Shown here piece by piece: positions 26,509-31,492 of a stretch of DNA of 64,000 nt (its first letter is position 1; each line of letters starts with the position of its first letter). Under the pieces are notes generated by a model that did not search any database, was not told the DNA's origin, and saw only the letters and a list, made by a program, of their open reading frames with translations. The position numbers and the translations under genes were made by a program. Origin of the DNA: Amoebidium appalachense (Eukaryota; Protista; Ichthyosporea); NCBI GenBank assembly GCA_963693365.1, contig CAVNZM010000006.1, positions 7,481,264-7,545,263 on the forward strand, given 5' to 3'.

Positions 26509-26755
26509 AACCATACGAGTTGGAGCATCGTGTTCCATGTTAGCCTCGGCGGTCACAATAGGGGCGGTGCGCCGCGTTCCATGCTAACCTTAGCGCTGCA
26601 GTCTACAGACCATATGGACTGTAGCACCGTGTACCTGTTCCAAGCGTGCCCCGGCAGTCTAGGCCATATAAACCGGAGCGCTGTGTTCCATCCTAGCCGC
26701 GGCACGAACCTAGACCATATGGACTGGAGAGCTGTGTTCCAGGCTAGCCTTGGCA
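26509..26755 (-). repeat. About 5 degenerate ~50-bp tandem copies of the Orai stop-codon region
   Basis: The minus-strand unit ggctagcctggaacacagctctccagtccatatggtctag encodes the last ~13 codons plus TAG and recurs in the 3' UTR. Confidence 0.75.
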
Positions 26756-29700
26756 AGCTGCACGTGGAGTGCAACGAGTCGACGGTGAAACTTCACAAGG
26801 TAGACGGCAAGCAGGATCTGTGTGTGTGTGTGTGTGTGTGTGTGTGTGTGTGTGTGTGTGTGTGTGTGCGTGTGTGTCTGTGTGTGTGTGTGTGTGTGCG
26901 TCTGTGTGTGCGTGCGCGCATGTGTGTGTGTGTGTTGATGTGTCGTGTGAACGAGTGTGTATGTGTGCGCCTGTGAGTGTGGGCATGGGAAAATGGGTGT
27001 GCAGGGACTTTCCCTCCCTGCTTTCTAATCTCTTTGTTTCTTTTCCCTTTTTTTTTTTTTTTTTGTTGGTGGTGGTGGTGGGGGCATATTCATTATTCAT
27101 TTTCAGTCCAGGCATGTTTCGTCACCCCATCTACATTGAAGCGCTGGGGGGGGGGGGGGGGGGGGGGGGGGGGGGGGGGGGGGAGGGGGGGGGGGGGGGG
27201 GAGGCCGGGGGGAGACTGGGTATGTGCGTGCTTGCGTCCATGTGTGTGTCTGTGTGTGTGTGTCCGTGTGTGTGTGTGTGTGTGTGTGTGCACCTCTCTC
27301 TCTCTCTCTCTCTCTCTCCCCCCCCCCCCCACCCCCCCTGTATGCGTGCGTGCGCGCGCACGTCTCTCTCTCTCTCTCTCTCTCTCTCTCTCTCTCTCTC
27401 TCTCTCTCTGTGTGTGTGTGTGTGTGTGTGTCGGTGTGTGTGTGTGCGTGCGCAATGCACGTCTCTCCGCTCCCACCCCCCCTCACCTCTCTCTCTCTGC
27501 GTGTGTGTGCGCGCACGTCTCCCCCCCCACCCACACTCTTCTCTCTCTCTCTCTCTCTCTCTCCCCCTGTGTGTGTGTGTGAGTGTTGACGCGTTTGCAC
27601 CCACCATGATGGGGACTGTGTACAAGGCTGTGCTGATGCCGGCCTCCTTTGATGCAAAATAGAATTGAGTCCACCTGCAACACAAATACACACACACACA
27701 CACACACACACACACACACACACACACACACACACACACACACACACACACACACACACACACACGCACACACACGGACACACACACACACACACACACA
27801 GCCACACACACACGCACACACGGACACACACGGACAAACACACACACACACACACACACACACACACACACGCACACATACACCAGTCAGTTACCCACTC
27901 TCCACCATTTCTCCTTGTATATGCAGTCTTGTATGCCCACTACCACACACATCCAATACGTGCCAAAATATCCGCATCACGTCATACACCCCCCCCCCCC
28001 CCCCCCCTTCCTTTCTTCCCCGTTTTTCCATACCCTCCCCCCCCCCCCCCCCCCCCTCCCCGCCCCGGCGCCGCCAGGGAAATACCCCACAAAACTGAAA
28101 TACTAATCAGCTCAAAAAGATGAACAACTATCCCCCAGCAGGCAGAAACAAAACACAAGCAATGAAGCATACAAACACGGCCATAACCCGTAGGGGAAAG
28201 GTAATATATTAAACTTTTCTTCTTTCTTCTTCTTCTTCTTTTTACCTTCCTCTTCTTCTTCTTCTTCTTCATTTCGGTTTTTTCTTCCCCCTTCTTCTTC
28301 TTTTCGTTTTTCTTTTCTTCTTCTTTTTCTTCTTTCTTTCTTGCTTTTCTTTTCTTTTTTCTTTTTTTCTTTCTTTTCTTTTCACCCCCCCCCCCCCCCC
28401 CCCTCCCCCCCTTTTTTTTTTTTTTTTTTGTGTGTGTGTGTGTGTGTGTGTGTGTGTGTGTGTGTGTGTGGGGGGGGGGGGGGGGCAAGTTTCTTATCAG
28501 GGGAGTTCTTACGTTGCAATCACAAAGGCAGCCAGGAACATCAGTACGCCCATGCCGGTAGCGAAAAACCAAGCGATTGAGATGTAGACCTTAAATTCCC
28601 GGTAGGGTAGCGGCCCAGTAGTCCCTACCATCCCTCGCAACTGCCTGAAAATTGGGAAATTTTAGATATGCACGATAGCTGCCTGAAATCTAGGAGACTT
28701 AATATACATACTCAATAGGCTGCCTGAAATTCGGGCAATCTTAGGCACGATACGCTGCGTGAGACTTAGGACAACATAGATATACATGATACGCTGGCTG
28801 AAACTTTAGAAACCTTAGATATACATATTATGCTGCCTGAAATTTTAGCAATTTAACTTTAGGGCTGGTGGGAGGGAGTACAGAAGAGGGGAAGGGGGAG
28901 GGGGAGGAAGGGGGGGGAGGGGGAGGGGAGAGGGGGGAGAGGTGGTACTAAGTCGGGATGAATGCATAAGGGGGTGGGCATTATGCAAGCAAGAACATTA
29001 ACGACTAATGGTTCAACATAGGCTACGTCAGACTACACACTTCCGGGAAAATTTCAATCTGAAATGACGTCACACTGAAATACTTCCATTTATTAAAGTA
29101 TCTCAGGTCGACGTCCATGCCGTAGCGATTTCAGCCGGGCGGCGGCTGAAAATTTTTGATATGACAGCGTACATAGTCTATTTTGAACCTTTGTTCCTTA
29201 AGTGCCCCAACGACCAAAAAGCATACCCCCCCCCCCCAAAAAAAAAAAAAAAAAAAAAAAAAAAACATCCCCCCCCCCCCCCCCCCCCCAAAAAAAAAAA
29301 AGAAAAAAAAAAGAGAAAAAAAAAAGAGGGGTGGGGGTAGGGGGGGGTTTCTTTACTCATAAGCGTCCAGATTAGGCACGATGTTGATGGAGATGAGAAG
29401 GGCAAACAGATAGATGCAGATTAGACACGTGGTCGAGAGTGCAAACAGTACCACCAGCCACGAAGGGGTGCGTGGGTCCACGGATATCTGCGCAAGCGCC
29501 GTGAACGCAAAACCTGTGAAAGGGTTCGTGTACGTGTGTACGTGTGTACGTGTGTACGTGTGTGTGTATGTGTGTGTGTGTGTGTGTGTGTGTGTGTGTG
29601 TATGTGTGTGTGTGTATGTGTGTGTGTGTGTATGTGTATGTGTGTGTGTGTGTGTGTGTGTGTGTGTGTGTGTGTGTGTGTGTGTATGTGTGTGTGTGTG

Positions 29701-31492
29701 TGTGTGTGTGTGTGTGTGTGTGTGTGTGTGTGTGTGTGTGTGTGTGTTGGGTGGGTGGGTGGGAGGGGGAGGGGGGAGGGAGGGGGAGTGTGCATGAGTG
29801 AGTGGGTGGTTGGGTCTCTCTCTCTCTCTCTCTCTCTCTCTCTCTCTCTCTCTCTCTCTCTCTCTCTCTCTCTCTCTCTCTCTCTCTCTCTCTCTCTCTC
29901 TCTTCTCTCTCTCTCTCTCTCTCTGTGTGTGTATGTGTGTACTAAGTCACAGGTGCTGTCAGCTTGCATATGTGTTAGTGTGTGTGTGTGTGTGTGTGTG
30001 TGTGTGTGTGTGTGTGTGTGTGTGTGTGTGTGTGTGTGTGTGTGTGTGTGTGTTTACATGTGTCAGTGTGTGTTGTTGAGTGGTGGTGGTGATGGTGGCG
30101 CTGGTGGTTATGGTTGGTGGTTGAGGGAGGATGGCGTGCAGGGAGGGAGAGGAAGGGGGGGTGAGGGGAGGGGGGTAACCGAGGAGCAAAGAAATAGTTG
30201 CAAAGAACCGGTTTGTGTTATGAGTTATGAAGTTAGTAATGATCTATAATACGTAGGAGGCTAGAATGAGGGGGGGAAGGGGAGAAGGTTGGGAGGGGGG
30301 AGGAGAAGGGGAAGAGATAGAGGAGAAGGGAGAGGTGGGGGGAGAAGGGAAGGGGGGAAAGGAGAAGGGGGTGCGGGGGGAGGGGGAGGGGGGATAGGGA
30401 GGGGGGGACAGGGAAGCCGGCGATGGTTGGAAAAGAAGAGCAGAAGAGTTGAGTTACCCCTGCCCTCCCCCCCCCCTCCCCCCCCCCCACCCTTTTTCCT
30501 CCTTCGCCCCCCCCCCCCCCCCCCCCTCCCCCCTCCCCCCCCTCCCCCCCCTCCCCCCCTCGTGCCCTTTCCACCTCTGCCCTCGATGTGACAGCATGGC
30601 AGGACATACAGCGAAGGCAGAGAATGAAAGAGGACAGGAGTTGGGGGGAGGGGGGTCAACAGAAGGGTCGGGTAGAGGGGAGGAGGGGGGGGGGGGGGAA
30701 GAGAGAGAGAGAAACGAGAGCGTATGTGTGTGTGTGAGGGAGAGAAAGAGAGGAGGGAAGAAAGGAGCGAGAGAGGCAGAGAGACAGGGAGAGAAAGGGG
30801 GAGAGGAAGGGGGAGAGAGAGGAATGGAGGGAGGGAGAGCAGGAGAGAGAGAGAGAATGAGAAAGGGGGAAAGGAGGGGTGGGAAAGAGGGGGGAGGGGG
30901 GGGGGGATGATGTATGCGTTAAAAGGGTTGGAACTATGGAGGAGACAAGAGAGGACAACAACAAAGCGTCAAAAAATGTGTAACTGGAGGGACGGAGAGA
31001 GGGCGAGAGACAGAGAGAGACAGAGAGAGAAAAAGAGAGGGAAAGGCAGGGGGGAAGAGAGAGGGAGAGGGAGAAAGAGAGAGGGAGGGAGGGGCGGGGA
31101 GAGAGAGAGAGCGAGAGGTAGGGAGGGAGGGAGGGAGGGAGAGGGAGGGAGGGTGGGAAGGGAGGGCGAGGGAGGGTGGGAGGGAGGGATGGAGGGCACA
31201 GGGATGGAGGGAGGGAGGGAGGGAGGGAGGGGGGAGTTGCACAAACCCCGCATCAGAGAGATGAAAAGGCAGGCGAAAAAATCTTCGTTTGAGAGATCTC
31301 ATAGTGTCCTTTATTGAGTGCACAGGCCACAACAAGAGAATCTCCTTGATGCATGGCGTGGCCCATTACCCAGTACCCACCGGCAATAAGAGCTGAGATC
31401 TCAACCACCTTATCCAGCCGTTGTACGTCCATGCGATCTGTGTCGATCACAGGCAAGAACGGGAAATGGGGGTGGCTGCTTCTGGCTGCCAT
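26710..31492 (-). CDS. ORAI: Orai (CRAC channel pore subunit) homologue, 192 aa, with atypical pore residues
   Basis: Five GT-AG exons 31492-31381, 29513-29357, 28644-28513, 27674-27605, 26817-26710 give an intact 579-nt CDS with an ACCATGG start. TM1 QRLDKVVEISALIAGFAFTALAQISVD (Orai1 [27 protein letters not shown]), TM2 STTCLICIYLFALLISINIVPNLDA, TM3 IAWFFATGMGVLMFLAAFVIATWTQF, TM4 AGISTALYTVPIMILLAVYLVKFHRRLVAL. Confidence 0.92.
28641..28860 (-). repeat. Six ~38-bp tandem units, each a copy of the Orai exon 3 acceptor (..ctaa...tttcag|gcag)
   Basis: Plus-strand ctgcctgaaa-like motif at 28641, 28679, 28720, 28755, 28794, 28833. Confidence 0.85.

What the first reader, a model, noticed from the sequence alone, without database searches (positions are those of the whole stretch)
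26710..31492. Intact Orai channel with a charge-inverted pore (E106Q, R91E, K87D, R83V, V102T, E190A equivalents)
Seen: a complete 192-aa, 4-TM Orai, ungapped against human Orai1 through TM1 (offset 60): V23=R83, D27=K87, E31=R91, G38/F39=G98/F99, T42=V102, Q46=E106, D50=D110; also Y72=H134, S112=E173, A129=E190, P155=P245. Established: E106 is the Ca2+ selectivity ring and E106Q abolishes Orai1 conduction, V102 polar/small substitutions give STIM-independent opening, and R83/K87/R91 form the basic inner pore. Inference: the outer acidic ring is lost while acidic residues replace the basic ones at the cytosolic end, in a gene with no disabling lesion. This looks like a re-engineered channel (different selectivity, leak or reversed flux) or a natural dominant-negative subunit, possibly an undescribed Orai class.
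Basis: partly seen in the sequence, partly recalled or inferred. Interest (0 to 1): 0.9.

Follow-up and report, generated by a model that had tools for sequence, protein, structure and literature searches.

The report
Orai channel lacking its calcium filter
This is an intact, spliced gene for a relative of the Orai calcium channel in which the calcium-binding glutamate is replaced by glutamine, as it also is in a single-celled relative of animals (Creolimax), and whose inner pore positions carry acidic instead of basic residues, so it likely works as something other than the calcium-selective, STIM-gated channel known from animals.

Summary
Observation confirmed. Five minus-strand exons (31492-26710) give a 192-aa Orai-family protein; all listed substitutions are there, and RNA-derived contigs from one sample join exons 1-2-3 with no differing letter over Q46, D27 and E31. 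E106Q is not a one-off: the Orai of the ichthyosporean Creolimax fragrantissima and five unnamed fragments also have Q there, against E in 104 of 104 other rows. Creolimax instead has a glutamate one turn deeper (V102E) and keeps K87 and E190, so the acidic inner ring (D87, E91) is seen only in this gene (1 of 2 sequences covering that region). TM2-4 hold no charged residue despite 35-37% identity to relatives, which neutral decay almost never gives. A single origin of the Q group is moderately supported and depends on fragments. Best reading (0.5): a non-CRAC, STIM-independent, poorly selective cation channel whose negative charge sits at the cytosolic end; main rival: a non-conducting membrane scaffold like Jiraiya/TMEM221. 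Nothing functional was tested; STIM and paralogues could not be searched. No paper on ichthyosporean Orai was found; the scan had no look-alike elsewhere (one different, E106-keeping springtail Orai).

The parts
31493..31907 (-). 5' leader of exon 1, at least 415 nt, 11 upstream ATGs (longest uORF 33 aa), none in frame to the CDS without a stop
   Evidence: X1 contig covers 31379-31907 with 0 other letters; uATG count
31381..31492 (-). Coding exon 1, residues 1-38(1): cytosolic extension of TM1 with V23 (R83), R25 (K85), D27 (K87, codon 31414-31412), K28, E31 (R91, codon 31402-31400), L35 (L95)
   Evidence: best of 530 candidate phase-1 donors upstream of exon 2 against an Orai TM1 profile
29357..29513 (-). 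Exon 2, residues 38-90: outer TM1 (F39=F99, T42=V102, Q46=E106 at 29490-29488, D50=D110), loop 1, TM2 (Y72=H134)
   Evidence: Pfam Orai-1 28.3 bits; PDB Orai; both junctions in contigs
28513..28644 (-). Exon 3, residues 90-134: loop 2 and TM3 (S112=E173, A129=E190)
   Evidence: Pfam Orai-1 29.6 bits; PDB Orai, weak; 5' junction in X1 contig
27605..27674 (-). Exon 4, residues 134-157: loop 3 and first half of TM4 (P155=P245)
26710..26817 (-). Exon 5 coding part, residues 158-192 and TAG: end of TM4, nexus-like segment from L169, short 24-aa tail with 1 acidic and 3 basic residues
26506..26758 (.). About five degenerate 44-61 nt repeats; the last copy encodes the final ~16 codons and the stop, the others lie in the 3' UTR
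26168..26709 (-). Inferred 3' UTR (about 542 nt)
   Evidence: length of X1 contig beyond exon 2 if introns 2-4 are removed; inferred

Best explanation
The gene encodes an intact, transcribed Orai-family protein that has Q at the filter position and D/E at two inner-pore positions, and it likely forms an Orai-type hexamer that is predicted to pass cations with little calcium selectivity and without STIM. Shown: gene structure, splicing of introns 1-2, residues, family, selection on the membrane helices, and Q106 in Creolimax and five fragments. Inferred: (1) the Q106 change is old and shared in a group that includes ichthyosporeans, to which this organism probably belongs; (2) members put the cation-attracting acid at different depths (position 102 in Creolimax, 91 and 87 here); (3) T at the 102 gate keeps the hydrophobic stretch wet, and the acidic inner rings remove the positive barrier that helps make human E106Q non-conducting; (4) loss of E190, E173 and of the acidic C-terminal helix means a wider pore and no STIM coupling, so gating, if any, is by something else (for instance cytosolic Mg2+, protons or lipid), with bulky Y at H134 as a possible brake.
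For: Residues and splicing. Family and register. Q106 shared: P0001, P0002, P0003, P0022, P0048 = Creolimax CFRG0793, P0114; E in 104 of 104 other rows with a residue. The Creolimax protein folds as four helices (pLDDT 84.5) and its 11 best PDB matches are Orai. Selection: 0 charged residues in 75 TM2-4 columns at 35-37% identity; neutral simulations to 60% identity gave that in 0 of 2000 and 1 of 2000 runs; no stop in 48 of 1000 runs even without indels. Scaffold residues L86, S93, L95, G98, F99, A100, A103, D110, P245 kept. V102T is constitutively open and non-selective in human Orai1 (PMC7825772 passages); V102A rescues loss of the basic residues and gives non-selective current, though still STIM-dependent (PMC7034092 section 19); E190Q/A widens the pore (PMC6647248 passage). 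A toy ring-charge calculation (assumed radii, no pKa shifts) gives a negative on-axis potential along the whole pore here and a positive inner pore for human-type E106Q.
Against: No conduction, assembly or localisation was measured, and the spliced protein could not be folded. In human Orai1, E106Q in all subunits is non-conducting (PMC7723414, PMC12893689, PMC3505497 passages) and more Glu in the basic region means progressively less gating (PMC7034092 section 20). P0001-3 have no acid at 102 or 106 (M, Q) and their inner pore is unknown, so a 'moved acid' is seen in only two forms. K28 and R20 could neutralise D27/E31, and crowded acids may be protonated. The protein has lost 21 of 48 conserved columns against 12 for Creolimax and sits on a long branch (1.3-1.8), which also fits relaxed constraint. 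One origin of the Q group is supported 94/98 and 93/98 with fragments but in 0 of 200 bootstraps without them; AU p = 0.57; no named choanoflagellate, filasterean or algal Orai was in the tree. The organism's identity rests on this one gene family.
Confidence: 0.5

Rival explanations
1. A non-conducting Orai-fold membrane protein kept for another job (scaffold, ER or vesicle regulator), in parallel to Jiraiya/TMEM221, which derive from Orai and lack its Ca2+-binding residues.
For: Human E106Q and multi-Glu inner-pore mutants are non-functional; selection shown here is on helix hydrophobicity, not on pore residues; positions 102 and 134 vary freely across the Q group (T/E/M; Y/N/H); precedent in PMC7016017 (passage); an independent E106-less Orai-like protein in the mayfly Cloeon (P0005).
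Against: Q106 and D110 are the same in all group members with an anchored register, and L95/G98/F99 are kept in this gene and Creolimax; Creolimax has a pore-facing Glu at 102 and keeps K87 and E190, which looks like a working pore; Pfam places the exons in Orai-1, with no Jiraiya match at E <= 10.
Confidence: 0.28
2. A modulatory or dominant-negative subunit that co-assembles with a canonical E106 Orai of the same organism and lowers or de-selects its current.
For: E106Q/A subunits are dominant-negative, and alternating WT/E106Q concatemers conduct with reduced Ca2+ selectivity (PMC3505497, PMC7723414 passages).
Against: No canonical paralogue seen: none in the window, and the only Creolimax Orai returned is itself Q106 (word-limited searches, so weak). 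The genome could not be searched.
Confidence: 0.12
3. A pore for something other than metal cations (protons, water or small neutral solutes), lined by Q, T and protonatable acids.
For: Polar but uncharged outer pore (T42, Q46) and acids at the inner end.
Against: No precedent in the papers read; hydrophobic L95/F99 kept; purely speculative.
Confidence: 0.07
4. A decaying copy or an assembly/sequence error.
For: Long branch; retention of conserved versus variable columns (27 of 48 versus 11 of 52) is no stronger than uniform decay would give; a repeat-derived C-terminus; RNA support is from one sample, possibly the genome's own strain.
Against: Spliced contigs with identical codons; open frame and clean TM helices at 35-37% identity; Q106 in six other sequences.
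Confidence: 0.03

Closest known systems
Canonical Orai / CRAC pore subunit (Pfam PF07856; Drosophila Orai, PDB 4HKR, 6BBF, 7KR5; vertebrate Orai1-3)
   Same: Four-helix layout, ungapped TM1, L95/G98/F99, D110, W176, G183, P245 equivalents; 24-35% identity to the 19 comparison rows.
   Different: E106Q, V102T, R83V, K87D, R91E, H134Y, E173S, E190A; short tail with one acid. In tool-held canonical rows: E106 104 of 104, basic 83 and 87 78 of 78 each, H134 105 of 105.
Creolimax fragrantissima CFRG0793 (EukProt EP01134_P000793; P0048), an uncharacterised Orai-1 domain protein
   Same: Q106, D110, R85-L86, same short loop 1 and loop 3 lengths; 8 residues shared that occur in at most 1 of 19 comparison rows, against at most 5 for any of those rows.
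   Different: Only 33% identical; has E102, K87, T91, T83, N134, keeps E190; long C-terminal tail (475 aa).
Jiraiya/TMEM221 (Pfam PF15038)
   Same: Orai-derived and lacking the Ca2+-binding residues (PMC7016017, passage).
   Different: Reported only in animals; this protein scores as Orai-1 and not as Jiraiya.
Divergent diatom Orai clade (PMC11085791, passage)
   Same: Divergent Orai outside animals, in organisms without a detected STIM.
   Different: That clade keeps the filter glutamate.

Membership tests
Orai family (PF07856) | Profile match above the curated cut-off | tested here: met
   Exon 2 28.3 bits, exon 3 29.6 bits, cut-off 25; 116 bits over residues 26-185 to a profile of 70 tool-held Orais
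Orai family (PF07856) | Four transmembrane helices in Orai order | tested here: met
   Hydropathy (TM1 only weakly hydrophobic) and profile alignment; Orai fold shown only for the Creolimax relative
Orai family (PF07856) | Hexameric assembly with TM1 lining the pore | not tested
   Spliced protein could not be handed to the folding tools; a proxy job would pass by likeness to solved structures
CRAC channel | Glutamate ring at E106 | tested here: not met
   Q46, codon CAG, same in contigs
CRAC channel | Basic inner pore at 83/87/91 | tested here: not met
   V23, D27, E31
CRAC channel | Hydrophobic gate L95/F99/V102 | tested here: inconclusive
   L and F kept, V102 is T
CRAC channel | STIM-binding C-terminal helix and a STIM partner in the genome | tested here: inconclusive
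   Tail is 24 aa with 1 acid against 4-5 in four of five canonical rows and 1 in the fifth; STIM could not be searched (no genome)
CRAC channel | Store-operated, Ca2+-selective current | not testable with these tools
   Needs electrophysiology
Jiraiya/TMEM221 | Match to PF15038 | tested here: not met
   No match of any exon at E <= 10; Creolimax relative only 11.7 bits, cut-off 27

The most novel reading that the evidence does not exclude
Ichthyosporeans carry a second kind of Orai channel with a movable filter: the same pore scaffold selects cations with an acidic ring at position 106 (animals), 102 (Creolimax) or 91/87 on the cytosolic side (this gene), and works without STIM. This gene would be a natural channel with the Orai pore electrostatics turned inside out.
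Probability: 0.3. Interest if true: 0.85.

Novelty: new variant of a known kind. Interest (0 to 1): 0.66.

Why it matters
E106 is treated as indispensable and the basic inner pore as universal in Orai (PMC7723414 passage says those residues are Lys/Arg in all Orai channels). A selected, expressed group with Q106, and members with the acid at other depths, gives natural test cases for two open questions: what the basic region is for and why E106Q kills conduction, and what Orai did in lineages outside STIM-coupled store-operated entry. Two genes (this one and Creolimax CFRG0793) can be expressed and recorded directly.

Tried and rejected
Whole genome not held: no search for STIM or paralogues. 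Word-based homologue search with exon 2 alone found nothing among 86 candidates. Two metagenome scans found no locus (586 and 184 pattern matches, none confirmed), so no DNA of relatives and no dN/dS. No second Orai in the window. The other runs with shares of 0.05-0.08 are no evidence; X2 and X5 laid nothing. An alternative, basic first exon was sought because X1 contigs break at the exon 1/2 junction (depth 41 versus 31): none better than the real one in the window. Alignments A3 and A4 misplaced exons 3-5 and were not used for searches. The alternative reading Q46 = Q108 with a deletion in TM1 was considered and set aside. Conserved-versus-variable retention does not show selection for this gene, nor does co-loss of conserved columns with Creolimax (7 observed, 5.25 expected, p = 0.20). 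The one other row with E at 102 is a truncated vertebrate isoform row. ESM Atlas look-ups returned only Orai clusters or unnamed leads. No complex prediction was run. Paper searches with no hit: orai+evolution+choanoflagellate+e106, orai+stim+unicellular+ichthyosporean (19), orai+creolimax (41), orai+ichthyosporea (65), v102d+e106a+orai1 (69); orai+capsaspora+stim (42, 9 papers) and orai+salpingoeca+stim (86, 2 papers) listed nothing on E106-less Orai by title or abstract start. A recalled double-mutant experiment moving the acid from 106 to 102 could not be confirmed and is not used.
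Full report
The observation. The window is intron- and microsatellite-rich eukaryotic DNA; no whole genome is held. Exons 2 and 3 each pass the Pfam Orai-1 cut-off; exons 1, 4 and 5 match nothing alone. Against Drosophila Orai and a profile of 70 tool-held Orais TM1 is ungapped and Q46 falls on the filter glutamate. 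One MAFFT run gapped TM1 instead, but short-loop canonical Orais align E on Q with no gap. Human numbering is taken from the papers read and from recall.

Expression. Contigs of X1 and X23 (one sample, perhaps the genome's own strain) pass from exon 2 into exon 1, and in X1 also into exon 3, with 0 other letters over both exons, including the codons for V23, D27, E31, T42 and Q46. X24, X2 and X5 laid nothing. The leader is at least 415 nt with 11 upstream ATGs. X1 contigs break at the exon 1/2 junction; no better first exon exists among 530 candidates in the window.

Relatives. A search of 1.84 billion representatives with exon 2 gave 43 hits. The best three (P0001-3) and P0022 are unnamed exon-sized fragments with Q in the same column, ungapped to exon 2; only P0001 carries the G98-F99 anchor itself, P0002-3 are placed through it. 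A profile of these found, as best of 54 hits, Creolimax fragrantissima CFRG0793 (P0048), a full Orai-1 domain protein (120 bits) with Q106, E at 102, T83, K87, T91, N134 and E190 kept. A last search (16 hits) added P0114 (Q106 fragment) and P0108 (C-terminal half, no TM1). In the other 107 aligned rows (animals where named, many near-copies, found by likeness to the query; the Q set, P0044, P0108 and the mayfly P0005 left out) E106 stands in 104 of 104 with a residue, positions 83 and 87 are basic in 78 of 78, position 91 is R 53, T 20, S 4, Q 1 and never acidic, H134 is 105 of 105. So Q106 is shared by six other sequences, but the acidic inner ring is known only here: 1 of the 2 sequences that cover it. 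P0001-3 and P0022 stop matching at the same codon where exon 2 ends and read on as a phase-2 donor would, which suggests a shared intron (inferred from protein only).

One origin? With 19 comparison rows (87 long rows thinned at 85% identity) the 8 Q-group rows form one side of a branch at 94/98 and 93/98 with four pore columns removed; without the fragments this gene and Creolimax do not join in any of 200 bootstraps. The tree that holds them together is 2.0 log-likelihood units better than the one the free search found, AU p = 0.57. They share 8 near-private residues against at most 5 for any comparison row; co-loss of conserved columns is not significant (p = 0.20). No named non-animal outgroup was available, and long branches meet. 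One origin is thus plausible, not shown; that the window is an ichthyosporean is an inference from this alone.

Selection. TM2-4 hold 0 charged residues in 75 columns at 35-37% identity to P0050 and P0048; neutral point mutation to 60% identity gave that in 0 and 1 of 2000 runs, and left the frame open in 48 of 1000 runs. Against: the protein keeps only 27 of 48 conserved columns (Creolimax 36), and its ratio of conserved to variable retention is no proof of selection. The membrane scaffold is selected; selection on D27/E31 is untested. The Creolimax protein folds into four helices with a continuous TM1 ending at Q106 and matches Orai structures in its top 11 ranks; the window's spliced protein was not folded.

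Mechanism. From human mutants (passages of PMC7723414, PMC12893689, PMC3505497, PMC7825772, PMC6647248; sections 19, 20 and the first part of Results of PMC7034092): E106Q in all subunits does not conduct and is dominant-negative; single R91D/E behaves like wild type, more Glu in the basic region progressively loses gating; V102T opens the channel non-selectively; V102A rescues loss of basic residues with a non-selective, still STIM-dependent current; E190Q/A widens the pore; bulky H134W closes it. These point both ways. The reading I think likeliest (0.5) is that the changes go together: a wet gate, no outer filter, a wider pore and an inner end that attracts cations instead of repelling them, giving a poorly selective cation channel without STIM. 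A toy ring-charge calculation shows the sign change but rests on assumed radii and full ionisation, and K28 and R20 may offset it. The C-terminal tail is 24 residues with one acid and its end lies in a degenerate repeat. The main rival (0.28) is a non-conducting scaffold; a modulatory subunit (0.12), another permeant (0.07) and decay or error (0.03) follow.

What is known. It is an Orai-family member but fails the CRAC-defining residues. Jiraiya/TMEM221 are Orai-derived, lack the Ca2+ residues and are reported from animals only (PMC7016017, passages); divergent diatom Orais keep the glutamate (PMC11085791, passages); the Schistosoma Orai keeps R91 and E106 (PMC3194816, passages). Ten searches of the held library listed no paper on ichthyosporean or naturally E106-less Orai; subscription journals are not covered, and the ORAI and STIM accession lists and Orai/Jiraiya alignment in the supplement of PMC7016017 lie beyond the stored cut and could include a Sphaeroforma sequence. 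The scan's own notes hold no look-alike and one different, E106-keeping springtail Orai (unchecked).

Verdict. Real, expressed and selected; a new variant of a known family with at least one named relative; the fully charge-inverted pore is so far this gene's own; function untested. Interest 0.66.

Noticed in passing
window 26506-26758: About five degenerate 44-61 nt repeats; the last encodes the end of the Orai protein and its stop, and the next copy, in frame 51 nt on, also ends in TAG. The protein's tail may be repeat-derived.
   Followed up: partly
window 31493-31907: Long 5' leader with 11 upstream ATGs, which could damp translation.
   Followed up: partly
window 29485-29514: X1 contigs break at the exon 1/2 junction (depth 41 versus 31), a hint of a second upstream form; none found in the window.
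   Followed up: partly
window about 44200-52300, + strand: Exons of a SUMO protease gene; 46538-46672 matches SENP7 and 48344-48496 matches SENP-family proteases.
   Followed up: partly
window 7402-7902, - strand: Weak reverse transcriptase match below cut-off, probably a decayed retroelement.
   Followed up: no
window about 14700-18250, + strand: Cysteine-rich exon-like frames; 16393-16584 has a weak PAN-domain match.
   Followed up: no
window 20332-20532, + strand: Weak Spherulin4 match below cut-off.
   Followed up: no
protein P0005 (Cloeon dipterum, CAB3365468.1): Mayfly protein with two Orai-like TM1-TM2 stretches, both with S at the E106 position and E at K87 in the second: apparently an independent loss of the filter.
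   Followed up: partly
protein P0048 (Creolimax CFRG0793): Natural V102E/E106Q pairing: the filter acid appears moved one helical turn inward; worth testing by itself.
   Followed up: partly
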